Assembly: GCA_963776495.1 (NCBI GenBank)
Contig: CAVZMW010000006.1
Coordinates: 265,119-329,118 of the forward strand
DNA from: an uncultured Acidobacteriota bacterium
Lineage (GTDB): Bacteria > Acidobacteriota > Vicinamibacteria > Vicinamibacterales > Fen-181
DNA length: 64,000 nt
Reading direction: 5' to 3'
The position numbers were made by a program, and so were the translations under genes. Below the pieces are notes generated by a model. It ran no database searches. It was not told where the DNA came from and saw nothing but the letters and a program-made list of their open reading frames with translations. Below, piece by piece: positions 29,410 to 40,554 of the stretch (the first letter of the stretch is position 1; every line of letters begins with the position of its first letter).

Positions 29410-30722
29410 TGCGCTACCAGTACTCCAAGTTCACCGGCGAGATCGCCGACGAGATGGACCTCGAGGACCTGGTGTCGCAGCTGTCCGACCTGCTGCTCTT
29501 CAGCGGCTTCGGCGGTCCGTCCGCGCTCGACCACGGCGACGACTCCCTCGAGGCGCTGCACGACGCCATCCTGGAAGCGCTGCTCAACGGCGAGCTGCTG
29601 TCGGAGGAGATCCTCGACCGCCTGCTCGGCGAGGTTGAGAACGGGCAGCACGAAGACCGGCTCGAACGGTTGATCGAACAGCTGATCGATCGGTTGCAGC
29701 GCGAGGGTTACGTCACGGCGAGTCCGGATCTCGAGAAAGAGCGCCGCCAGCGGCAACAGCGCAGCTCGTCCGGTGGTGGCATCGGACCCGACGCGCGGCC
29801 GGTCACCTTCGAGGTCACCGACAAGGCGCTCGACTTCCTGGGCTATCGCGCGCTGCGCGACCTGCTCGGCTCGCTCGGCAAGAGCAGCTTCGGCAGGCAC
29901 GACACGCGCGACCTCTCGACGGGCATCGAAGCCCTCAGCGCCCCGAAGCCGTACGAGTTCGGCGACACGCTGAACCTCGATCCGAGCGCCACGATCCTGA
30001 ACGCGGTCGTGCGAGAACGCCTGGCCGCGGCGGAGGCTGTCTCGGCCCCGGCGCGGGCGGCTGCCTCGGATCCAGGCAGCCCGTTCTCGATCGACGTCGA
30101 TTATCGGGACCTGATGGTGGCGCAGGGCGAGTACCAGAGCTCGTGCGCCACGGTGCTCATGCTCGACTGCAGCCACAGCATGATCCTCTACGGTGAGGAC
30201 CGGTTCACGCCGGCCAAGCGCGTGGCGCTGGCGCTCGCCAACCTCATTCGCCTGCAATACCCCGGCGATGGCCTGCACGTGGTCCTGTTCCACGATTCGG
30301 CCGAGGAGATTCACATCAAGGAACTGGCGCGCGTGCGCGTCGGGCCGTACTACACGAACACCCGCGAGGGTCTGCGGCTGGCGCGGCGCCTCCTCGACCG
30401 CCAGCGCAAGGACATGCGGCAGATCATCATGATCACCGACGGCAAGCCGTCGGCGCTGACGCGTCCCGACGGCCGCATCTACAGGAACGCGTTCGGCCTC
30501 GACCCACTCATCGTCAGCGAAACGCTGGCCGAGGCGGCCGCGTGCCGCAGGAGCGGCATCATGGTGAACACGTTCATGCTGGCGAGGGACGCCGACCTGG
30601 TGAGCTTCGTCCGAAAGGTGGCGGAGATCTGTCACGGCAAGGCGTACTTCACGACGCCCCACACCCTGGGCCGGTACGTCCTGATGGACTATCTATCCAG
30701 GAAGACGAGGACGGTACATTGA
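29409..30722 (+). CDS. VWA-domain protein (Rv0959-like), partner of the ATPase
   Basis: TGATG coupling; [36 protein letters not shown]. Confidence 0.88.
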
Positions 30723-30866
30723 ACTCGGCGCTACGTACGCCTTGCGCCTTACGCCCTACGCCGCACGGCCGAACGCCTGACGCCTGACGCCTGACGCCTT
30801 GCGCCGAGCCGTGAGCCCCGGAGCCTCTTGGCTCGAGCCGCGGGCTTCAGGCTACGGGCTCCCGAT

Positions 30867-30953
30867 GTAGGGCGACCCTTCAGGGTTGCCTCGGGCAAGG
30901 CTGAAGCCTCGCCCTACCGAGGTTGCTGTAGGGCGACCCTTTAGGGTTGCCGA
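30867..30953. repeat. Cluster of three GTAG-type REP-like palindromes
   Basis: gtagggcgacccttcagggttgcc (30867), inverted ggcaaggctgaagcctcgccctac (30894-30917), gctgtagggcgaccctttagggttgccga (30925-30953). Confidence 0.85.
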
Positions 30954-30970
30954 GGCGGGGCCGCGGGTGT

Positions 30971-31339
30971 TCACCTGGCTTTCGCGTACCAGATCCCGAG
31001 ATCGAGGTCGATCACCAGCCTGACTTCGCTTCCCGAGATCTCAACGGGATAGCCCGCGTGGTCTAGCAGGACCTCTGGCTCGCGAGCGCCTTCGGACGTG
31101 ATTGTCCACACGCCGACAACCTCTGACCTGGGCTTGGTTGGTCCTCCCTGCACGAGGTGGTGCCTCCCATCAGTTCTCAGAGTCAGGCGCTCCCACTCGT
31201 GATCGGTTTGTTTGCCCTCAGGATCTTGGGACTTGTAGAAGTAGCTCCCGACAAGCAGCTCTTTGGATACCGGCGGTTGCGCCGACCGGCAGTTGGCCAG
31301 CGCAGCCACGCAACCAATGCAGGCGAGGATTCGCTTCAT
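30971..31339 (-). CDS. Hypothetical exported protein, possibly a lipoprotein
   Basis: MKRILACIGCVAALANC...; lower-GC codon usage; enclosed by inverted REPs. Confidence 0.65.
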   Translation of the reverse strand: MKRILACIGCVAALANCRSAQPPVSKELLVGSYFYKSQDPEGKQTDHEWERLTLRTDGRHHLVQGGPTKPRSEVVGVWTITSEGAREPEVLLDHAGYPVEISGSEVRLVIDLDLGIWYAKAR

Positions 31340-31408
31340 CCAAGACTCCGCGTCAGGAGGACCGTCGCGGTCAGCATCGTCAGCATAAAGGGCGTGCCAT
31401 GAAGCGCG

Positions 31409-31437
31409 TCGGCAACCCTGAAGGGTCGCCCTACAGC
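31409..31437. repeat. GTAG-type REP, inverted partner of 30925-30953
   Basis: tcggcaaccctgaagggtcgccctacagc matches the reverse complement of the left copy at 28 of 29 positions. Confidence 0.85.
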
Positions 31438-31482
31438 TGAGGCCCGAAGCCTTGAGCCCTGAGGCTTGAGCCCTGAGCCTTC

Positions 31483-31689
31483 TTACGTGCTGCGCCGGCG
31501 CGCCGTGTACCAGGCCGACGCGAGCATGAGAAGGCCAAAGCCGAGGAGCACGAGCCCCCACCACAGGTTGACGTTGATGCCGAGCGACGCCTGGTAAATC
31601 GCCGGGTCGCTCACCAGGCCGTAGACGGCCAGCAGCGCGCCCAGCGCGGCGAACAGCAGGCCGATTGGCACGCGCAAATCCAAGGACAT
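31483..31689 (-). CDS. Small two-TM membrane protein associated with the SSS transporter
   Basis: MSLDLRVPIGLLF...YGL...SLGINVNLWWGLVLLGFG; downstream of the SSS gene. Confidence 0.8.
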   Translation of the reverse strand: MSLDLRVPIGLLFAALGALLAVYGLVSDPAIYQASLGINVNLWWGLVLLGFGLLMLASAWYTARRRST

Positions 31690-31823
31690 ACCCACCTCGC
31701 GAGATCGGACCCAGTCTGTCAACGCAGGGCTGAAGCCCTGCGCTATCTGATCATTCTCGAACTCCGGCGGCGTCGTGCGACCTGCGTGACACCGCCGCCA
31801 GCCGCCAGTCGCCAGCCGCCCGC

Positions 31824-33488
31824 CTACCAGAAGTACAGATTGAGCGCGACCGACGCCGCGAGCACGATGACGCCGAGCACGAGCGGACGCCGGAACCACG
31901 CGAGGCCCGCAGACGACGACCTCGGCGTGAGCGAGTAGACCAGGCCCACCAGGTCCTTCTCGTCGCGCGCCTTGGTCACGAGGCTGATCAGGATCGTCAG
32001 CACGAAGCACCCGGTCCACGCGACGATGGCGCCCCAGAAGTTCTGCGCCATGTCGCTCGGATAGGTGTGCAGCAGGCCGACCCGTCCGCCCGCGACGCCG
32101 GTCAGCCCGTAATGCACGGCCGCCGCACCGGTCCCGCCCATCAGCCCCCAGAACGCCCCGTTCGGCGTCGTCTTCTTCCAGAACATGCCGAGGAGGAAGG
32201 TGGCGAACAGCGGCGCGTTGATGAACGAGAAGACGAGCTGCAGCAGGTCCATGATGTTGTTGAACATCATGGCGATGTAGGCGGTCGCGATGCTGGCGAT
32301 CGTGCCGAACACCGTCGCCATCCGTCCCATCCAGAGATAGTGCTCGTCGGGCGCGCCGGGCTTGATGTAGGTCTGGTAGATGTCGTAGGTCCAGACGGTG
32401 TTGAAGGCGGTGACGTTGCCCGCCATGCCGGACATGAAACTCGCCAGCAGCGCCGCCAGCCCCAGGCCGAGCAGCCCCGACGGATAGAGCCTCTGCAGGA
32501 GCACCGGCAGCGCGCGGTTGTAGTCGATCTTGCCGGCCGCGTCGGCGAGGCCCGCGTCGCCCACCAGCGCGAGGATCACCATCCCCGGCAGGATCACCAG
32601 GAACGGGAAGAACATCTTCGGGATCGCCGCGACGAGCGGCGTCCGCTGGGCCGCGTTCATCGACTTCGCCGCCATCGCCCGCTGCACGACCAGGAAGTCG
32701 GTGCACCAGTAGCCGAAGGAGAGGACGAAGCCGAGGCCCATCACCATCCCGAACCACTCGACGCCCATCGGGTTGGCGGACGCGCTGCCGAGGTGCTGCC
32801 ACGAGTGCGTCAGCACGCCCGGCTCGAACCCGCGCGCGACGCTCACCGCGGCGAGCTTCGCCTGCAGCCCCGGCCACCAGCCCACCGCCTTCAGGCCCAG
32901 CAGCGACAGCGGCAGGAACCCGAACACGATCAGGAAGAACTGCAGCACCTCGTTGTAGATCGAGCTGGTGAGCCCGCCGAGGAACGTGTAGCCGAGGACG
33001 ACGGCCGCGGCGATGAGGATGCTGGTGTTGATGTCCCAGCCGAGGAACTGGCGGAAGAGCAGCCCCATCGCGTACATGCTGATCCCGGACGAGAAGATCG
33101 TCATGACGGCGAACGACATCGCGTTGAATCCGCGCGTCTTCTCGTCGAAGCGGAGGCGCAGGTACTCGGGCACCGAGCGGGCGCGGCTCCCGTAGTAGAA
33201 CGGCATCATGAAGACGCCGACGAAGACCATCGCCGGGATGGCGCCCACCCAGTAGAAGTGGCTCGTCAGGATGCCGTACTTCGCGCCGCTGGCCGCCATC
33301 CCGATCACTTCCTGCGCGCCGAGATTGGCCGAGATGAACGCCAGGCCGGTGATCCAGGTGGCCAGGCTGCGGCCCGACAGGAGGAAGTCGAGGCTCGTGC
33401 GCATGTAGCGCCGGAGCGCGACGCCGATGCCGAGGACGAACACGAAGTAGAGGCCGATGACGGCGTAGTCGATCGCGTGCAGGTGCAT
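31824..33488 (-). CDS. Sodium:solute symporter (SSS family, probably sugar)
   Basis: DFLLSGRSL, SANLGA.E.IG, SVPEYL.LRF, YWCTDFLVVQRAMAA, ASFMSG; many TM segments. Confidence 0.95.
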   Translation of the reverse strand: MHLHAIDYAVIGLYFVFVLGIGVALRRYMRTSLDFLLSGRSLATWITGLAFISANLGAQEVIGMAASGAKYGILTSHFYWVGAIPAMVFVGVFMMPFYYGSRARSVPEYLRLRFDEKTRGFNAMSFAVMTIFSSGISMYAMGLLFRQFLGWDINTSILIAAAVVLGYTFLGGLTSSIYNEVLQFFLIVFGFLPLSLLGLKAVGWWPGLQAKLAAVSVARGFEPGVLTHSWQHLGSASANPMGVEWFGMVMGLGFVLSFGYWCTDFLVVQRAMAAKSMNAAQRTPLVAAIPKMFFPFLVILPGMVILALVGDAGLADAAGKIDYNRALPVLLQRLYPSGLLGLGLAALLASFMSGMAGNVTAFNTVWTYDIYQTYIKPGAPDEHYLWMGRMATVFGTIASIATAYIAMMFNNIMDLLQLVFSFINAPLFATFLLGMFWKKTTPNGAFWGLMGGTGAAAVHYGLTGVAGGRVGLLHTYPSDMAQNFWGAIVAWTGCFVLTILISLVTKARDEKDLVGLVYSLTPRSSSAGLAWFRRPLVLGVIVLAASVALNLYFW

Positions 33489-33574
33489 GCCGCGTCTCCG
33501 GGGTGACGACGTAACCGCGGGCCGAGTCGGTGCATTCTTGCATTAGGGAGGAAGCACGGCAATACTGAAACCGC

Positions 33575-33752
33575 CCCTCGACGTTGCTCGGGGCGCCCTG
33601 AGCATGGTCGAAGGGCGGCTGACGGCCGACGGCTGACGGCGGACGGCCGTGCCCAGGGTGGAACTCACGCAACGCCCTCGCGCCGGGCCTGAAGGCCCGG
33701 CCTACGAAGGTCGCTGGCTGGGCCATCAGCCTTCAGCCGTCAGCCTTCAGCC
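33575..33752. repeat. Composite repeat: inverted GGCTGAC heptamer arms enclosing a REP-like hairpin
   Basis: ggctgac ggccgac ggctgac ... gccgggcctgaaggcccggcctac ... atcagcc ttcagcc gtcagcc ttcagcc. Confidence 0.75.
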
Positions 33753-33766
33753 GATAGGAGGCTTTC

Positions 33767-35029
<1,263 letters not shown>

Positions 35030-35040
35030 TCGGATCTGAC

Positions 35041-35410
35041 GCTGGTCAATCGGCGGACGGGCGGATCAATCGGCGGACGGGCGGATCAATCGGCGGACGG
35101 GCGGATCAATCGGTAGACGGGCGGATCAATCGGCGGCCGGGCGGATCAATCGGCGGCCGGGCGGATCAATCGGCGGACGGGCGGATCAATCGGCGGACGG
35201 GCGGATCAATCGGCGGACGGGCGGATCAATCGGCGGCCGGGCGGATCAATCGGCGGCCGGGCGGATCAATCGGCGGACGGGCGGATCAATCGGTAGACGG
35301 GCGGATCAATCGGCGGACGGGCGGATCAATCGGCGGACGGGCGGATCAATCGGCGGACGGGCGGATCAATCGGCGGACGGGCGGATCAATCGGTAGACGG
35401 GCGGGTCAAT
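35041..35410 (+). repeat. 20-bp tandem array A (GCGGATCAATCGGCGGACGG), 18 full units plus a half unit
   Basis: Exact 20-bp period from 35041 to 35400; three variants of the second half (cggcggacgg, cggtagacgg, cggcggccgg). Confidence 0.97.
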
Positions 35411-35760
35411 CCGATTGACGGTCGAAGAGCCCGATTGATGCCTCTGGGTCCCGATTGACGACCGTGATCTTCGATTGACACCCGTGATCTCCGATTGACA
35501 CCCGTGGTCTCCGATTGACACCCGTGGTCTCCGATTGACACCCGTGGTCTCCGATTGACACCCGTGATCTCCGATTGACACCCGTGATCTCCGATTGACA
35601 CCCGTGATCTCCGATTGACAACCGTGGTCTCCGATTGACACCCGTGATCTCCGATTGACACCCGTAGTCTCCGATTGACACCCGTGGTCTCCGATTGACA
35701 CCCGTGATCTCCGATTGACACCCGTGGTCTCCGATTGACAACCGTGATCCCCGATTGCGT
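35411..35760 (-). repeat. 20-bp tandem array B (CCGATTGACACCCGTGRTCT), 18 cores, inverted relative to array A
   Basis: (C/T)CGATTG every 20 bp from 35411 to 35751; its reverse complement shares TCAATCGG and ACGGG with array A. Confidence 0.97.
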
Positions 35761-36834
35761 ATGTCCCTAGCACCCTACATGACCTGGGCCAAGCTGCACC
35801 CCAGGTCGCGTATCAATCTCGCGGGCAGCAACCTGCTCGCCTGCGACCTCTCCGACCTGCCCGGCGCGCGCGAGGCGCTCGAGCTGCACGGCGACAACGA
35901 CAACGGCTTCCGGCCGCTCATCGACGCGATCGCCGGCGCCTACGCCGTCGCGCCCGACATGGTGGTGACGGGCCAGGGCACCTCCGGCGCCAACTTCCTG
36001 GTGTTCGCCGCGCTCGTCACGGCGGGCGACGACGTGCTGGTGGAACGGCCGGGATACGACCCGCTGATGGGGCCGCCGATGCTGCTCGGCGCCCGCATCA
36101 CCCGGTTCGACCGCCGGTTCGAGGACGGCTACCGGCTCGACCCCGACGCCGTGCGCGACGCGATGACCGATCGGACGAAGCTCATCGTGGTGACCAACGC
36201 GCACAATCCAACCGGCGTGATGGCGGCCGAGAGCGACCTGGCCGAGGTCGGCCGGATCGCCGAGCGGCACGGCGCGCGGGTGCTCGTTGACGAGGTGTAT
36301 CTCGACACGGCGACCGACGGCCCGGTGCGCCCGGCAGCCGCCCGCTCGCCGGTCTTCATCTCCACGAGCAGCCTCACCAAGAGTTACGGCCTCGCGGGCC
36401 TGCGCTGCGGCTGGGTGCTGGCCGCGCCGGACGTCGCCGAGCGGGTCCGCCGGGCGCGGGACATCGTCGACGGCAGCGGCGCGTTCCCGGCCGAGCGCCT
36501 GTCGGTGCTGGCCTTCTCGCTGCTCGACCGCCTGGCCGCGCGCGCGCGGCGAATCCTGACGGCCAACGGCGCAACGGTCGGGCAGTTCCTGGCCGGGCGC
36601 CCGGACCTCGAGTGCGTGCGGCCCGGCGCCGGCACGGTCGTCTTCCCGCGGCTGCGCGGCGTCGGCGACGCGGGACCGTTCGTCGCGTCACTGGCGGAGC
36701 GGTTCCAGACCGACGTCGTGCCCGGCCATTTCTTCCAGGCGCCCGCACACTTCCGCCTCGGGTTCGGCGGCCGGCCGGAGGATCTCGCGGAAGGACTGGT
36801 TCAACTCGAGAAGGCGCTCGACTCGCGGGGGTGA
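35761..36834 (+). CDS. PLP-dependent aminotransferase class I/II
   Basis: NAHNPTG, VDEVY, SSLTKSYGLAGLRCGW, PGHFF...FRLGFG. Confidence 0.93.
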   Translation: MSLAPYMTWAKLHPRSRINLAGSNLLACDLSDLPGAREALELHGDNDNGFRPLIDAIAGAYAVAPDMVVTGQGTSGANFLVFAALVTAGDDVLVERPGYDPLMGPPMLLGARITRFDRRFEDGYRLDPDAVRDAMTDRTKLIVVTNAHNPTGVMAAESDLAEVGRIAERHGARVLVDEVYLDTATDGPVRPAAARSPVFISTSSLTKSYGLAGLRCGWVLAAPDVAERVRRARDIVDGSGAFPAERLSVLAFSLLDRLAARARRILTANGATVGQFLAGRPDLECVRPGAGTVVFPRLRGVGDAGPFVASLAERFQTDVVPGHFFQAPAHFRLGFGGRPEDLAEGLVQLEKALDSRG

Positions 36835-36891
36835 GCGGAGGGCGAACCCTCAGCCTCGCCCCCGCTCCCTGATCCCCGATCCCCGCCAACC

Positions 36892-38046
36892 CTACTTCGC
36901 CGAGAACGCGTAGATCGTCGTCGACTTGTAGGTCTTGCCCGGCTCGAGGATCGTCGACGGGAAGTTCGGATGGTTCACCGAGTCGGGGTAGTGCTGCGTC
37001 TCGAGGCAGAACGCGGAGTGCTTCTGGTACGGCACGCCGTGACGGTTCTTGATCGTGCCGTCCAGGAAGTTCCCCGTGTAGAGCTGGATCGCCGGCTCGG
37101 TGGTCCGCACCTCCATGGTCCGGCCGGACTTCGGTTCCACGACGCGCGCCGCGAAGGTGAGCCCGCCTCCGGCCTTCCGGAGGACGAAGTTGTGGTCGTA
37201 GCCGACCGGCGGCGCGATCGGCACCTTGTCGATCCGCGCGCCGAGCGGCGTGGGCCGGGTGAAGTCCATCATGGTCCCCTTGACCGGCGCAATCGTCCCG
37301 ATCGGGATGAGCAGATCGTCGTTCGGCGTGTAGCTGTCGGCGGCGATCGTCATGATGTGGTCGAGGACGAGGCCGTTGCCCTCGCCCGCGAGATTGAAGT
37401 AGGCGTGGTTGGTGAGGTTGAGCGGCGTCGGCTTGTCGGTCGTCGCCGTATAGTCGAGCCGCAACTCGTTGGCGTCGGTGAGCGTGTAGACCACCGTCAC
37501 GTCGAGCGTGCCCGGGTAACCCTCGTCGCCGTCCGGGCTGCGATGCGTGAACTGCACCGCCTGGCCGTCCCTCGCCGGGACAACCTCCGCCTTCCACACC
37601 ACCTTGTCGAAGCCGACGTTGCCGCCGTGCAGGTGGTGCGGCCCGTTGTTGGTGGCGAGATGGTAGGTCTTGCCGTTCAGCGTGAAGGTGCCCTTCGCGA
37701 TCCGGTTCGCGACGCGGCCGACCGTCGCGCCGAAGTACGGGGTGCCCGCGAGATACGGCTCGAGCTTGTCGAACCCGAGCAGGACGTTCGCCGGCTTGCC
37801 GGCCCTGTCCGGGACGACCAACTCGGTGAGCGTGGCGCCGTAGGTCATGATCTTCGCCGTCATGCCGTGCCGGTTGGTGAGCGTGTAGATGTCCACGGGT
37901 GTGCCGTCCTTTGTCTTGCCGAACGCGGCCTTCGAAACCGCTTTCGCGCCGGCCGGGGAAGAGGCCTGATCGCCGGCGTGGGCCTGCGACGCGGCGACGG
38001 CCGCGGCGAGCGCCATCACGATGAAGATGGAACGATGCTGGTTCAC
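36892..38046 (-). CDS. galM: Aldose 1-epimerase (mutarotase) with signal peptide
   Basis: FGATVGRVANRI, HLHGG, GYPG, NLTNHAYFNL, YDHNF, QLYTGN, CLETQHYPD; GTG start after GAAGGAG. Confidence 0.94.
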   Translation of the reverse strand: MNQHRSIFIVMALAAAVAASQAHAGDQASSPAGAKAVSKAAFGKTKDGTPVDIYTLTNRHGMTAKIMTYGATLTELVVPDRAGKPANVLLGFDKLEPYLAGTPYFGATVGRVANRIAKGTFTLNGKTYHLATNNGPHHLHGGNVGFDKVVWKAEVVPARDGQAVQFTHRSPDGDEGYPGTLDVTVVYTLTDANELRLDYTATTDKPTPLNLTNHAYFNLAGEGNGLVLDHIMTIAADSYTPNDDLLIPIGTIAPVKGTMMDFTRPTPLGARIDKVPIAPPVGYDHNFVLRKAGGGLTFAARVVEPKSGRTMEVRTTEPAIQLYTGNFLDGTIKNRHGVPYQKHSAFCLETQHYPDSVNHPNFPSTILEPGKTYKSTTIYAFSAK

Positions 38047-38066
38047 CCTTGTCTCCTTCCACTCCG

Positions 38067-40554
38067 TCACTTCGTCCTTGGGCCGATCCGCACGGTGAGC
38101 GCGCAGTCCACCCACTCGGTCGCGCCGTCGGGCACGGTGATGTCGATAATCCGGGTCCGACCGTCGCGCCCGACCTCCCGGCCGCCTTCAATCGACCGCA
38201 CGACGAGCGGTGCGCTGAACGGCACGTCCAGGCGGACGCGGTACGTCCGCCCCTGGAGACCCTGCAGCCGCGCCGTGTACACGCTCCGGCTGTCGTCGGT
38301 GCGTGTCTCGATGATCCGGAGGCGTTGCGGCGCGTCGCCGAGCCTCAGCGGGGCCTCTTCGGGCACGAGGGCGATGGTCGGTCCCGCCACCTTCGGCTGA
38401 ACCACCGAGACAGCCATCGGACCGCGCGCCCGTTCGACGAACTTGGCCGAAACGGTGCCGCCGGCATCCCGACGCACTTCCAGGTCGCCCCGCGCGCCTC
38501 GCCAGCGGATGTTCTTCACCCGGAGGAACTCCCAGCCGGGCGGCAGATGGGGAGTCAGCCGGAGTCCGCGATCGCCTTCCTCGAAGCCGACCATGCCGCG
38601 CATGACGCCGGAGACGAAGCCGGTCGTGGCAAACAACTGGTGCGGCACCGCCGCGTCCACCGACCTCAGCAGGTCGCCCGACAACAACTCCGGCAGGTAG
38701 CCGCGCCCCTCGAGGAAGGTGAGTTCCGAAAGCGACTCGAGATAGTGCCACGCGGCGTCCGGGCGGCCGCCCTTGTAGAGCGCCAGCGCGGCCCACCCGG
38801 TGAGGAACGGCCACGAGGCGCCGTTGTTGTAGGACAGCGGCGCGTAGAGCCGGCTCTCCTTCGACAGCATCCTCGCGCCCCAGTCGGTGCCGAGCCCCGC
38901 GCGCGCCAACTCGTCGAGCGTGCCGTCCACCGCGGGGCGGTCGCGATCGAAGACGCCGCGCCAGATGCCGAATGCCGGCCACACGGTCGGCTCGGCCTGG
39001 CCCGTCCCGTCCTTCATCACCGCAAAATCAATCCGCCGCCCGCCATCGTCCAGGAACCGGCAGTTGAGGGAGGCGCGGGCCTTGTCGGCGGCGGCCTGCG
39101 CGGTGGCCGCGAACGCCGGGTCGGCGATCCTCGCCAGGTCGGCCGCCGCCGCGGCGGCCTCGGTCCACGCGCTCGCGAGGAACACGTCGGTGAGGACGTC
39201 GCGGCTGCGCAGCGTGCCGGTCTCGACGGCGGCGAGTCCCGCCTTCGTGTTGTCCATCAGGCCGTCGCCGTCCTCGTCGGTCGAGACGCAGTAGTCATAC
39301 GCCTTCCGCATCGACGGCCAGAAGTCCCTCGCGAATGCCTGGTCGCCGCTGGCGCGGACGAAGTCGCGCACCGCGACGATGTAGAGCGGCGTCGTGTCGG
39401 CGTGGTAGTAGCCGTAGGGATAGTCCTCGAACCAGCGGATGTAGCCGGCGCCCTGCGACAGCTCGTGCATCATCTTGCCGTCGGCGCGCTGCCGCTTGCG
39501 GAGGAACTCGAGCGACTGCCGGACCGTGTCGAGGTCGCCGTACGAGGGAGATCGCCCACGCGTTGATGAACGCGTCGCCGCCGAAGAACCACCCGAAGCC
39601 GGGCCGCTCGGTCGTGCCCGACGGGCCGAGGCCGGCGATGAGCCCGCAGCCGAGGTGCGGGTTGCAGACGAACCCCTTGTCGAGCGCGACCTTGCCCCAC
39701 TCGAACGCGAGGTCGAACCGCGTGTCGGGCGACTCGATGCTCGTCATCTCCTCGCGAAGCCGGCGGTAGTGCGCGAACGACTCGCGGTAGAGCGCCTCGG
39801 GCGAGGCGAGGAGCCGGGCGTAGGCCTTCTTCGCCGCGTCCAGTTTCTCGACGCTCGCGGTGATGACGATCGGCACGAGGCCGCGGGCCGCGATCTCGGG
39901 CGTGATGCGGATGGCGAACTGCGACGGCGCGTCGGGCAGGTTGTGCGCCGGCTGTTCGGGCGGCGTCAGGCCGAGCGGCGATCCGACGAGCGCGGCGTTC
40001 TTCCCGCTGCCCTCGCCGATGACGTACGCCTCGAGCGTGTCGTCCCAGTAGCTGTACTGGCCGCCGAGCGCGGCCGGCCACATCGGCTTGAGGTCGGGAC
40101 GGAACTTCACGTAGACCGTCAGCGGCTCGGTCGTCTTCACGTCGAGCAGCACCAGGCCGCCGGGCTCGTCGAGCGGCACGAGCCACGTCGCGTCCACCGT
40201 GAAGGCCGCGTGCGAATAGCGCACCGTGGCCGCCTCGGGCCTGATGTCCACGGTCGATGCCAGGCTCGCGCCGGGGATCGGGTCGGCATAGGCCGCGACG
40301 CCGAACGACAGGGTGAAGTCGTGGAGGATCTTCAGCGGGTAGGCCCAGGCCTCGAAGCTGCCGTCCTCGCGGCCGAGGAACGCGGCGCGCCGGCCCGACG
40401 CTTCCATGTAGCGGGTCGGGCGCGCGGCGCCGTCGAGCGCGATCGGGTTCGGGTCGCGCGCGAAGCGGGCGACGGTGCCGGCGGCGGGGTCGGCCGCGCG
40501 GAGGGGGAGTGCGACCGCCGCCGCGCACAGGAGCGACGCGACCAGGGTCTTCAT
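38067..40554 (-). pseudogene. Secreted glycogen-debranching-like (six-hairpin) glycosidase, frameshifted near 39547
   Basis: N-part MKTLVASLL...RPGFGWFFGGDAFINAWAIS; removing one C from CCC (plus strand ggg 39546-39548) gives SYGDLDTVRQSLEFLRKRQRADGKMMHELSQ...HADTTPLY...YNNGASWPF...HQLFA. May be a sequencing error. Confidence 0.8.

What the first reader, a model, noticed from the sequence alone, without database searches (positions are those of the whole stretch)
35021..35763. Head-to-head twin 20-bp arrays forming a ~740-bp periodic foldback between pepT and an aminotransferase
Seen: the whole intergenic region is two different 20-bp tandem arrays in opposite orientation. There are 18.5 units of GCGGATCAATCGGCGGACGG, then 18 cores of CCGATTGACACCCGTGRTCT, meeting at GTCAATC-C-GATTGAC (35405-35419). 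The arms differ yet keep the same period, nearly the same copy number, and complementary TCAATCGG/CCGATTGA and ACGGG/CCCGT blocks (13 of 20 nt). Unit variants fall outside the 8-bp core, apart from one arm-B core and the junction units. A degenerate first unit contains the pepT stop, the last abuts the next ATG with no Shine-Dalgarno, and most arm-B units contain TTGACA. Inference: simple slippage would not easily give two diverged, length-matched complementary arms. Candidates are a phased protein-binding platform (about two helical turns per unit), a long periodically bulged RNA hairpin, or an empty foldback-type mobile element, i.e. a larger version of the heptamer foldbacks elsewhere in this window.
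Basis: partly seen in the sequence, partly recalled or inferred. Interest (0 to 1): 0.8.

Follow-up and report, generated by a model that had tools for sequence, protein, structure and literature searches.

The report
Gene-less giant tandem-repeat foldback element
The 740-base spacer is a real, overgrown and gene-less copy of a family of hairpin-forming tandem-repeat elements that elsewhere in this genome enclose a small four-helix-bundle gene, the same gene found inside the intervening sequences of ribosomal RNA genes.

Summary
The pepT-to-aminotransferase spacer holds 18.3 units of one 20-bp repeat facing about 17 units of another.

It is not a one-off. The genome has 60 such arms (16.3 kb) around the core AATCGG. 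They form 18 pairs, all in the same convergent orientation. All 15 typable pairs have arms of different types.

Congeneric genomes carry the same family, but most use the core AGTCGG. The orthologous spacer ranges from an ATGA overlap, through one solo unit, to short twin arrays.

Two sister pairs enclose a PF05635 (S23p) gene. All 7 PF05635 genes of the genome sit inside tandem-repeat foldbacks. In the family, 21 of 35 such genes pass a strict test, against 2 of 300 control genes.

This is the architecture of 23S rRNA intervening sequences (PMC4990558).

Best reading: a gene-less, hyper-expanded member of an IVS-like foldback family. It was grown by slippage and rewritten by exchange between arrays. 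As RNA it folds so that the pepT stop and the next ATG meet. RNase III excision and S23p binding are inferences only.

I rate it a new variant of a known kind, interest 0.68.

The parts
33767..35029 (+). pepT-like M20 peptidase gene; its last codons (..SRE*) and its stop lie in the relic first repeat unit
   Evidence: ORF; Pfam PF01546 1.6e-16 and PF07687 3.3e-12; sequence
35018..35045 (+). Relic outer units: AGTCGG (the ancestral core kept by relatives), then AATCGG..CTGACG (type B-like). They contain the TAA stop at 35027-35029
   Evidence: the same AGTCGGnnCTGACG unit ends pepT in G011, G009, G014 and G001
35046..35411 (+). Left arm: 18.3 x 20 bp, type A variant (core TCAATCGG followed by CGGACGGGCGGA). 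The top strand is G-rich
   Evidence: TRF; arm typing
35405..35419 (.). Junction palindrome GTCAATC-C-GATTGAC where the two arms meet, with no loop
   Evidence: a 135-nt public contig spans 35346-35480
35412..35470 (-). Three degenerate inner units of the right arm (core CCGATTGA kept, the rest diverged)
35451..35757 (-). Right arm: 15.4 x 20 bp, unit CCGATTGACACCCGTGATCT. This is a locus-specific unit type related to the right-arm units of G003, G001 and G005
   Evidence: TRF; relatives
35750..35760 (-). Last truncated unit (CCCGATTGCGT), ending 1 nt before the ATG; no Shine-Dalgarno
   Evidence: no promoter-like or terminator-like site in 34700-36100
35761..36834 (+). Class I/II aminotransferase gene. 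Its ATG is conserved in 13 congeneric genomes. In array-free relatives the pepT stop overlaps it (ATGA, G013), lies 2 nt before it (G011, G009) or lies about 18 to 43 nt before it (G002, G006, G004)
   Evidence: Pfam PF00155 3.7e-39

Best explanation
The spacer is a gene-less, hyper-expanded member of a lineage-specific family of tandem-repeat foldback elements. A full element has three parts: a G-rich arm of tandem units, a small PF05635 (S23p, four-helix-bundle) gene, and an inverted C-rich arm. That is the plan of the intervening sequences (IVS) of 23S rRNA genes. Most copies, including this one, have no gene.

At this site the element sits exactly between two genes that were ancestrally coupled in translation. 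It grew from a single 20-bp unit or a 1+1 hairpin, with each arm expanding independently by replication slippage. The left arm was later overwritten with the genome's dominant type A unit by exchange with other arrays.

Only pairs with unlike arms reach large size, presumably because long perfect palindromes are not tolerated.

The region is most likely transcribed by read-through from pepT. The RNA then folds into one long, periodically bulged hairpin whose base joins the pepT stop to the aminotransferase ATG. The insertion is thus structurally looped out.

I infer that RNase III trims the hairpin as it trims an IVS, or that coupling works across its base, so the downstream gene stays expressed. 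I infer more weakly that the cognate S23p paralog (G000 C3:960125-960505) is the trans-acting partner that recognises the conserved ARTCGG core.

Shown: the anatomy, the family, the comparative history, the gene link and the in-silico fold. Inferred: transcription, RNase III processing, S23p binding, and the exchange mechanism.
For: Family. There are 45 clusters and 60 arms (835 cores, 16.3 kb) of AATCGG at about 20-bp period in G000. The reversed control pattern scores 0. There are 18 (+ -) pairs and 0 (- +) pairs. Of these, 15 are heterotypic, 0 homotypic and 3 undetermined. Across 21 other genomes of the family, the (+ -) junction pattern scores 43 hits and the (- +) pattern 11.

History of the site. 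The spacer is about 730 bp in G000, about 280 in G010 and about 140 to 150 in G014. It is about 225 to 235 bp in G001 and about 100 in G012. It is 46 bp or less in G011, G009, G002, G006, G013 and G004. G011 and G009 keep one unit, with the stop 2 nt before the ATG. G013 has an ATGA overlap. G011 (solo unit) is sister to G010 (array).

Position and rewriting. 8 of 10 arrays examined in G010 lie at sites that also carry an array in G000. The unit type is replaced at 2 of them. The two bases before the core changed genome-wide: TC in 640 of 795 G000 array cores, GG in 52 of 94 cores in the G010 regions fetched.

Gene link. Two gapped pairs enclose homologous PF05635 ORFs. The intact one scores TIGR02436 3e-23 and PDB 2gsc 7e-7. 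All 7 PF05635 genes of G000 are flanked by inverted tandem repeats: 3 pass the strict automated test and the other 4 are foldbacks by eye. The strict test is passed by 21 of 35 genes in the family, against 2 of 300 control genes. It is passed by 16 of 28 genes across the phylum. The 7 PF05635 proteins flanked by 19-20-mers fall in one clade (98/91). That clade holds one other member, G006, whose flanks are AGTCGAG heptamers.

Genome level. G004 has no PF05635, none of the three repeat classes, and 0 inverted pairs in 400 kb, against 13 in G000.

RNA. MFE is -388 kcal/mol against -348 +/- 8 for shuffles. The hairpin encloses the whole spacer from stop to ATG in G000, G010, G014 and G001. There is no promoter-like or terminator-like site. 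An RNase III gene is present.

Precedent. The Coxiella IVS has terminal inverted repeats, strain-variable tandem heptamers and an S23p ORF, and RNase III excises it (PMC4990558, passages read).
Against: No transcript data exist: no RNA run holds the locus. Transcription, folding in vivo and RNase III cutting are therefore untested.

Arm periods differ within pairs in relatives: 20 against 17 bp in G001, 20 against 19 in G010, and 18 against 20 at G000 C5:8274-9024. A regular hairpin register is therefore not conserved.

The array is dispensable at this site. Close relatives G011 and G009 have only a solo unit. Those two are fragmented short-read assemblies.

The core switch (AATCGG against AGTCGG) does not map as a single change on the S23p tree, so protein-site co-variation is not shown.

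G015 has only a 22.8-bit PF05635 remnant, yet shows 4 inverted pairs in 400 kb, as many as G006, which has 6 PF05635 genes.

14 of 35 PF05635 genes fail the strict foldback test.

No target-site duplication or fresh insertion was seen, so mobility in the strict sense is unproven.
Confidence: 0.6

Rival explanations
1. The arrays work as double-stranded DNA: a phased binding platform. A sequence-specific protein, possibly the S23p pentamer or a nucleoid protein, binds the ARTCGG core every two helical turns. The two arms present sites in convergent polarity. The arrays would act as architectural or boundary elements. Hairpin formation would be irrelevant.
For: The core is invariant while the other 12-14 positions differ between arrays. 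It is kept across genera of the family. The extended core shifted genome-wide at orthologous arrays, GG-AATCGG in G010 against TC-AATCGG in G000. Selection by a changed trans factor would produce such a shift. Periods of 17 to 21 bp with unequal arms fit binding better than base pairing. Polarity is strict, with 18 (+ -) pairs and 0 (- +) pairs.
Against: No candidate protein is tied to the core. Arrays occur in every gene-orientation context with no bias. Copy number ranges from 1 to 90 units at equivalent sites, and arrays vanish in close relatives. That is odd for a needed platform. Exchange between arrays can homogenise a core without selection. The fixed polarity follows trivially from descent from one palindrome.
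Confidence: 0.17
2. Neutral or selfish bacterial satellite DNA. Slippage-prone units expand wherever a seed hairpin exists. RecA-mediated exchange between arrays homogenises them. Selection only removes harmful forms, such as perfect palindromes or arrays that extend reading frames. The PF05635 genes are passengers that tolerate or prefer hairpin loops. No RNA or protein function exists at this locus.
For: Presence and absence, and large size differences, occur among close relatives at the same site. Unit variants are scattered, with no mirrored pattern between the arms. Unit types are replaced at orthologous sites. A 3.5-kb segmental duplication carries an array along. There is no gene-context bias. 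In the Coxiella IVS, S23p is reported as probably not expressed and decaying (PMC4990558, passages).
Against: This does not explain why the core stays fixed while the flanks drift. It does not explain why 8 of 10 array sites persist between species whose flanking DNA is 83 to 92% identical. It does not explain why PF05635 clades keep their own repeat type across species. It does not explain why arrays end exactly at stop and start codons in four species.
Confidence: 0.18
3. Assembly artefact: the arrays, or their head-to-head junction, were created by a long-read assembler.
For: The same assembly holds an implausible run of 3013 A plus 136 C at C4:975433-978581. No run with half or more of the locus's words was found. 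Unit counts are unverified.
Against: Arrays lie at the same junction in five other, independently assembled genomes. Short public contigs match both arms, and one 135-nt contig crosses the junction. The arrays carry internal variant units. Short-read assemblies of relatives break exactly there (G005).
Confidence: 0.03

Closest known systems
Intervening sequences (IVS) of bacterial 23S rRNA genes with an S23p (PF05635, four-helix-bundle) ORF, e.g. Coxiella burnetii (PMC4990558, passages read)
   Same: Both have inverted terminal arms that form a long stem. Both have short tandem repeats inside the arms whose number varies between strains. Sister copies here carry a PF05635 gene in the loop. Gene-less forms exist in both; for other bacteria this is recalled. 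Both are tolerated inside a transcribed unit.
   Different: This copy lies between two protein genes, not in helix 25 or 45 of 23S rRNA. Its arms are 360 bp of 20-bp units instead of a 28-bp stem with 2-3 heptamers. The two arms are of unlike type. There are dozens of copies per genome. RNase III excision is untested here.
Convergent pairs of heptameric G-rich tandem repeats (GGGAATC) in Xanthomonas (PMC4692102, passages read)
   Same: Both are intergenic tandem repeats occurring as convergent plus/minus pairs: 70-75 pairs per Xanthomonas genome, 171 heptamer pairs plus 18 20-mer pairs here. In both, most lie between the same genes in related species while their length varies. In both the G-rich strand comes first (115 against 13 pairs here). 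One PF05635 gene of G000 is flanked by GGATTCG/GAATCCT repeats of the same heptamer family.
   Different: The unit here is 20 bp, not 7. The arms are heterotypic. Arrays reach 3 kb. The paper interprets its repeats as G-quadruplex formers. It contains none of the words 'four-helix', 'S23' or 'intervening' (0 occurrences).
REP / BIME elements and REPtrons (RAYT-associated), GTAG- and CGTC-tagged families (PMC3733652, passages read)
   Same: Both are high-copy intergenic repeats, mostly in head-to-head dimers. Heterodimers are preferred over homodimers in both. In both, one gene is flanked by the repeats that are dispersed elsewhere. The units here contain CGTC (in CGTCAG).
   Different: The G000 unit is not itself a palindrome. 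The repeats are long tandem arrays. The two RAYT (PF01797) genes of G000 are flanked by other repeats, not by the 20-mers. The associated gene is a four-helix-bundle protein, not a transposase.
Foldback (FB) transposons of Drosophila and mycobacterial MIRU-VNTRs (both recalled, no call)
   Same: FB elements have long inverted termini built of 10-, 20- and 31-bp tandem repeats, often with no internal gene. MIRUs are tandem repeats in spacers of operons whose ends overlap the stop and start codons of the neighbouring genes.
   Different: FB elements are eukaryotic and transposase-driven. MIRUs are 40-100 bp direct repeats without a foldback. No homology was tested.

Membership tests
ARTCGG-core 20-mer foldback family of this genus | Core ARTCGG repeated at about 20-bp period (17-21 bp) | tested here: met
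   19 AATCGG and 17 CCGATT cores at the locus. The three-core pattern scores 669 in G000 against 0 for the reversed control.
ARTCGG-core 20-mer foldback family of this genus | Convergent polarity: the core on the top strand in the left arm and on the bottom strand in the right arm | tested here: met
   The locus is 19+ then 17-. The family has 18 (+ -) pairs and 0 (- +) pairs.
ARTCGG-core 20-mer foldback family of this genus | Heterotypic arms, one of them type A (..GGACGGG..) | tested here: met
   The left arm is a type A variant. The right arm is a locus-specific type. 15 of 15 typable pairs are heterotypic, and 14 of them have exactly one A arm.
ARTCGG-core 20-mer foldback family of this genus | Intergenic, filling the spacer between neighbouring genes | tested here: met
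   The array runs from the pepT stop to the aminotransferase ATG.
IVS / S23p (PF05635) element | Inverted terminal arms able to form one long stem | tested here: met
   The MFE structure is a single long hairpin, -388 kcal/mol, z = -5. It encloses the spacer in 4 species. This is in silico only.
IVS / S23p (PF05635) element | Short tandem repeats within the arms | tested here: met
   TRF. The Coxiella IVS has 2-3 tandem heptamers (PMC4990558, passages read).
IVS / S23p (PF05635) element | PF05635 ORF in the loop | tested here: not met
   The arms meet directly at 35405-35419 and no ORF lies between them. Two sister pairs do have it: C3:960170-960487 intact, C3:1081257-1081445 degenerate.
IVS / S23p (PF05635) element | Inserted in helix 25 or 45 of the 23S rRNA gene | tested here: not met
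   The locus lies between an M20 peptidase gene and an aminotransferase gene. There is no Rfam rRNA hit in 30000-40000.
IVS / S23p (PF05635) element | Excised from the transcript by RNase III | not testable with these tools
   An RNase III gene is present. No RNA run holds the locus.
REP / REPtron (RAYT) | The repeats flank a RAYT (Y1 transposase) gene | tested here: not met
   The two PF01797 genes, C6:59461-59745 and C3:1302184-1302453, are flanked by 41-45-bp repeats of another sequence.
REP / REPtron (RAYT) | Each unit is a 20-40 bp imperfect palindrome with a GTAG or CGTC head | tested here: inconclusive
   Units contain CGTC. Some 19-bp variants in relatives form GTCAGT-CGGA-ACTGAC hairpins. 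The G000 units here are not self-complementary.
Heptamer convergent SSR pairs (Xanthomonas type, G-quadruplex) | Heptamer unit with G-tracts of 3 or more | tested here: not met
   The unit is 20 bp, with one GGG and three GG runs.
Plasmid-type iterons / partition centromere arrays | One or a few arrays per replicon, next to replication or partition genes | tested here: not met
   There are 45 clusters on 4 contigs next to unrelated genes.
CRISPR array | Repeats separated by unique spacers of similar length | tested here: not met
   The units are contiguous and near-identical, with no spacers.

The most novel reading that the evidence does not exclude
S23p-type four-helix-bundle proteins (PF05635) and tandem-repeat foldbacks form one widespread, REPtron-like system. 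Each protein lineage recognises, and helps spread or maintain, its own short repeat. Gene-less foldbacks such as this one would be its non-autonomous copies. The system would account at once for 23S rRNA intervening sequences, for the unexplained heptamer repeat pairs of Xanthomonas and cyanobacteria, and for kilobase-scale bacterial 'satellites' that evolve in concert across a genome.
Probability: 0.3. Interest if true: 0.85.

Novelty: new variant of a known kind. Interest (0 to 1): 0.68.

Why it matters
Bacterial genomes are not supposed to carry kilobase satellites, yet this one holds 16 kb of a single 20-bp family, with arrays up to 3 kb. The family keeps a fixed polarity and always pairs unlike arms. 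It has changed its core in concert at dozens of conserved sites between sister species.

The tie to PF05635 gives a concrete handle on two old puzzles. One is what 23S rRNA intervening sequences and their S23p genes are. The other is why heptamer repeat pairs pervade some genomes.

At this locus it is also a natural experiment. 730 nt were inserted between a stop codon and a start codon that were 2 nt apart or overlapping, with no ribosome-binding site. That tests whether an RNA hairpin can be looped out or excised from an mRNA as it is from rRNA.

Tried and rejected
Sequencing runs. No RNA holder is listed. The best DNA holders share 0.14 or less of the sampled words. The laid contigs are short (36-590 nt) and cannot give unit counts.

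Rfam. Only a sub-threshold Acido-Lenti-1 hit, outside the locus.

Promoters and terminators. No sigma-70-like promoter or intrinsic terminator in 34700-36100. The TTGACA in arm B therefore has no partner -10 box.

DGR/Avd reading of the PF05635 genes: rejected, because no reverse transcriptase (PF00078) is found in G000.

RAYT/REPtron membership: rejected.

Insertion of a mobile element between the duplicated arrays at C4:1308848 and C4:1312327: rejected. It is a 3.5-kb segmental duplication that includes the end of the upstream gene.

Methods that failed. A shared-7-mer score for inverted flanks did not discriminate from controls; a TRF-based test replaced it. The G012 hairpin was not computed because of a script error.

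Global scan for three TCAATCGG cores at 20-bp spacing. It found 23 stretches in scattered taxa. Most are unrelated arrays or single hits.

Literature. Searches for a described link between PF05635/S23p and tandem-repeat foldbacks found none. Only open-access papers and bioRxiv were searched. Supplements were not seen.
Full report
**1.

Tandem Repeats Finder gives 18.3 copies of a 20-bp unit at 35046-35411 (95% matches). It gives 15.4 copies of a second 20-bp unit at 35451-35757 (93% matches). Three degenerate units lie between them. The arms meet at the palindrome GTCAATC-C-GATTGAC, 35405-35419.

The left flank is an M20 (pepT-like) peptidase gene, 33767-35029. The right flank is a class I/II aminotransferase gene, 35761-36834. 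The TAA stop of the first gene lies in a degenerate outer unit. The last unit ends one base before the ATG, and there is no Shine-Dalgarno sequence.

**2. It is one member of a genome-wide family**

The window is G000:C6:265119-329118, in a 5.17-Mb genome of 69% G+C in 6 contigs. The core AATCGG/CCGATT at about 20-bp period forms 45 clusters. These make 60 arms, 835 cores and 16.3 kb. The largest, C3:1414264-1417295, has 64 + 90 units.

The three-core pattern scores 669 in G000, against 0 for the reversed control.

All clusters are intergenic. They occur between co-directional, convergent and divergent genes alike, and often fill the whole spacer (gene calls are my own crude GC3-based ones).

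**3. The family obeys rules**

- Polarity. All 18 pairs are core-plus then core-minus; none is the reverse. In the other 21 genomes of the taxonomic family, the (+ -) junction pattern scores 43 hits and the (- +) pattern 11.
- Unlike arms. All 15 pairs that can be typed are heterotypic. 14 of them join one type A arm (AATCGG-AGGACGGG-CGGATC) to a type B (..CTGACG..), a type C (..CTTCG..) or, here, a locus-specific arm.
- Arm size. Arm copy numbers correlate (Spearman 0.75, n=18) but are not matched.

So 'two diverged arms' is the norm, and the near-equal length at this locus is not.

**4. Relatives**

Among 40 relatives, the AATCGG form is abundant only in G010 (82 hits) and G014 (12). It occurs once each in G011 and G021. 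Most congeners, and one other genus of the family, use AGTCGG: G001 69, G005 79, G016 45, G003 38, G002 34, G014 22, and G000 only 3. Outside the family the pattern is almost absent.

The same unit subtypes (CTGACG, GACGGG, CTTCG) recur across species.

A scan of one genome per species found the three-core TCAATCGG pattern in only 23 stretches. Several of the record titles name Acidobacteriota or Vicinamibacterales, which suggests the phylum of the window.

**5. History of this site**

13 of 14 congeners have the aminotransferase ortholog. The spacer between the pepT stop and the ATG varies as follows.

| Genome | Spacer | Content |
|---|---|---|
| G000 | about 730 bp | twin arrays, 18.3 + about 17 units |
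| G010 | about 280 bp | 4.2 x 20 bp, then 10.3 x 19 bp |
| G014 | about 140-150 bp | short twin arrays |
| G001 | about 225-235 bp | 4.8 x 20 bp, then 6.5 x 17 bp |
| G012 | about 100 bp | short arrays |
| G005 | unknown | the contig ends in the array |
| G011, G009 | 2 nt after the stop | one unit, AGTCGGnnyTGACG, whose TGA is the pepT stop |
| G002 | about 18 nt after the stop | one left plus one right unit |
| G013 | none | ATGA overlap, no unit |
| G006, G004 | 46 bp or less | no array |

On the aminotransferase tree, G011 (solo unit) is sister to G010 (array). Both sit inside the clade that holds G000 and G014.

The two genes were therefore ancestrally coupled. A unit or small hairpin was present early. 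Arrays have since grown and collapsed repeatedly. G000 still keeps the ancestral AGTCGG and a CTGACG-type unit at its outer left edge.

**6. Arrays stay in place but are rewritten**

I examined 10 arrays in G010. 8 lie at sites where G000 also has an array. The flanking DNA is 83-92% identical.

At two of these sites a type C arm in G010 corresponds to a type A arm in G000. That type A arm is identical to type A arms at 15 other loci.

The two bases before the core are TC in 640 of 795 G000 array cores. They are GG in 52 of 94 cores in the 13 G010 regions I fetched.

Independent mutation cannot give this. Either arrays exchange sequence, or a common trans factor selects them.

**7. The link to a gene**

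Two pairs have a gap of about 420-465 bp between the arms: C3:959590-961216 and C3:1080699-1082272. Both gaps hold homologous ORFs of PF05635.

The first ORF is intact, 126 aa. It scores TIGR02436 'four helix bundle protein' at 3e-23, and PDB 2gsc (Xanthomonas XCC0516) at 7e-7. The second is degenerate.

In both, the type B arm lies upstream and the type A arm downstream of the ORF.

The other five PF05635 genes of G000 lie inside heptamer foldbacks.

I then applied an automated test: a tandem repeat within 330 bp on the left whose reverse complement is tandem on the right. The results were as follows.

| Gene set | Pass the test |
|---|---|
| PF05635 genes in the family | 21 of 35 |
| Control small genes of G000 | 2 of 300 |
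| Best PF05635 hits across the phylum (units of 7-9 bp, flanks 29-66% G+C) | 16 of 28 |
| Loci in genomes titled Lentimicrobiaceae, Akkermansia and Vicinamibacterales | 4 of 10 |

One locus from an unpublished genome, G085, was left out of the phylum count. The tally of 44 of 81 phylum genomes with the family includes the unpublished G085 and G062.

On a tree of 46 PF05635 proteins, the seven flanked by 19-20-mers fall in one clade (98/91). The only other member of that clade is a G006 gene flanked by AGTCGAG heptamers. A G016 gene flanked by a GGAGTCCAC 9-mer is sister to it (100/98). The other clades each keep their own heptamer across species.

G014 holds two paralogs of this clade. One is flanked by AGTCGG units and one by AATCGG/GATCGG units. 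G014 also has both kinds of gene-less array.

**8. Genome-level co-occurrence is suggestive, not clean**

G004 is a single 7.0-Mb contig. It has no PF05635 even at E = 0.01 and none of the three repeat patterns surveyed. It has 0 inverted tandem pairs in 400 kb, against 13 in G000.

G019 has one PF05635 with an internal stop and none of the three patterns.

G015 has only a 22.8-bit remnant and 4 pattern hits. Yet it shows 4 inverted pairs in 400 kb, the same as G006, which has six PF05635 genes. G015 is a counter-example or a relic.

**9. The wider heptamer class**

G000 has 171 neighbouring inverted tandem-array pairs, 157 of them heptamers, against 23 direct pairs. The G-rich arm comes first in 115 and the C-rich arm in 13. 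Loops are mostly 20-35 nt.

37 of the 171 loops carry an exact CACGCGTG palindrome, and 71 carry it with one mismatch or fewer. The 20-mer pairs lack this loop.

**10. What is in print**

The Coxiella 23S IVS is described as a 428-nt element. It has terminal inverted repeats (a 28-bp stem), an S23p ORF, and tandem GACAGAT heptamers whose number differs between strains. RNase III excises it (PMC4990558, passages read).

In Xanthomonas, 70-75 convergent pairs of GGGAATC heptamer repeats are reported. 90% lie between the same genes in two species. The text has no occurrence of 'four-helix', 'S23' or 'intervening' (PMC4692102, passages read).

REP families prefer head-to-head heterodimers (PMC3733652, passages read).

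I found no paper that links PF05635 to tandem-repeat foldbacks in general. Only open-access text was searched, and supplements were closed.

**11. How it most likely works here**

No promoter-like or terminator-like site lies in 34700-36100. The aminotransferase is therefore probably read through from pepT; this is an inference.

As RNA the spacer folds into one long hairpin: -388 kcal/mol, shuffles -348 +/- 8, z = -5. Helices of 8-12 bp are separated by small internal loops.

In the MFE models of G000, G010, G014 and G001, the hairpin runs from the stop codon to within 0-21 nt of the ATG. In G000 the UAA pairs with a UUG 4 nt before the AUG.

The insertion is thus looped out, and the ancestral stop-start neighbourhood is restored in space. 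An RNase III gene is present.

I therefore read the locus as an IVS-like element inside an mRNA. It would be trimmed by RNase III, or bridged by coupling across its base.

The arrays themselves are best explained by slippage, plus exchange between arrays, plus loss of long perfect palindromes. That last step rests on established knowledge of palindrome instability and was not tested here.

**12. Limits**

- There are no RNA data and no spanning long reads.
- Gene calls in G000 are approximate.
- Related genomes are not independent samples.
- Many relatives are fragmented short-read assemblies that under-report repeats.
- Mobility, RNase III cutting and S23p binding are all inferences.

Noticed in passing
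window 33616-33753: A heptamer foldback lies directly upstream of pepT. (CGGCTGA)n is followed by a 70-nt centre with a small GGCCTGAAGGCC hairpin, then (TCAGCCG)n ending at the AGGAGG Shine-Dalgarno. The window holds many such heptamer pairs, e.g. 5954/6003, 7188/7224, 8235/8262 and 11408/11530.
   Followed up: partly
G000 genome-wide (e.g. C3:337611, C3:475403, C4:30814-30897): The loops of heptamer foldbacks share a palindrome, GTCACGCGTGAC. The core CACGCGTG is exact in 37 of 171 loops and present with one mismatch or fewer in 71 of 171. 38 of the 162 genomic CACGCGTG sites lie in detected loops, and more lie in undetected foldbacks. This may be a protein-binding site.
   Followed up: partly
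G000:C4:975433-978581: A run of 3013 A followed by 136 C. It lies next to a 121-bp repeat that also occurs on contig C1. It looks like an assembly or scaffolding artefact.
   Followed up: no
G000:C4:1308750-1312620: A 3.5-kb segmental duplication. It carries the end of a gene and a small twin array (8+3 and 7+3 units). The two array copies already differ by one unit and a few substitutions.
   Followed up: partly
G000:C6:59461-59745 and G000:C3:1302184-1302453: Two RAYT-like Y1 transposase genes (PF01797). Each is flanked by tandem 41-45-bp REP-like hairpin repeats, GCAGGCCTnnAGGCCTGC and a GGGCCGGCC type. This is a separate REPtron system in the same genome.
   Followed up: partly
G000:C5:8274-9024: A pair whose two arms have different periods. 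The left arm has 16 units of 18 bp (AATCGGTGAACTCGGATC). The right arm has 22 units of 20 bp.
   Followed up: no
G000:C3:1080904-1081172 and G000:C4:1318918-1319397: The 20-mer arrays are interrupted at regular intervals by a 56-bp hairpin-like insert (..CTGCCTGCCTCGCCGAAGCCGCGTCAGCGGCGAAGG..). This gives 76-bp higher-order repeats. The same 56-mer forms its own arrays at C6:39831 and C3:1430239.
   Followed up: no
L009 6059-7828: A record titled Lentimicrobiaceae bacterium has three adjoining arrays: 17.8 x 21 bp, 44 x 20 bp and 7.5 x 42 bp. That genome has 12 PF05635 genes.
   Followed up: partly
window 31723-31754: A sub-threshold match to the Rfam family Acido-Lenti-1: 25.5 bits against a gathering score of 37.
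   Followed up: no
window 35046-35411: Each type A unit carries four G-runs (GG, GG, GGG, GG) separated by 1-2 nt. The G-rich strand could therefore form weak two-tetrad quadruplexes, as proposed for Xanthomonas heptamers (PMC4692102).
   Followed up: no
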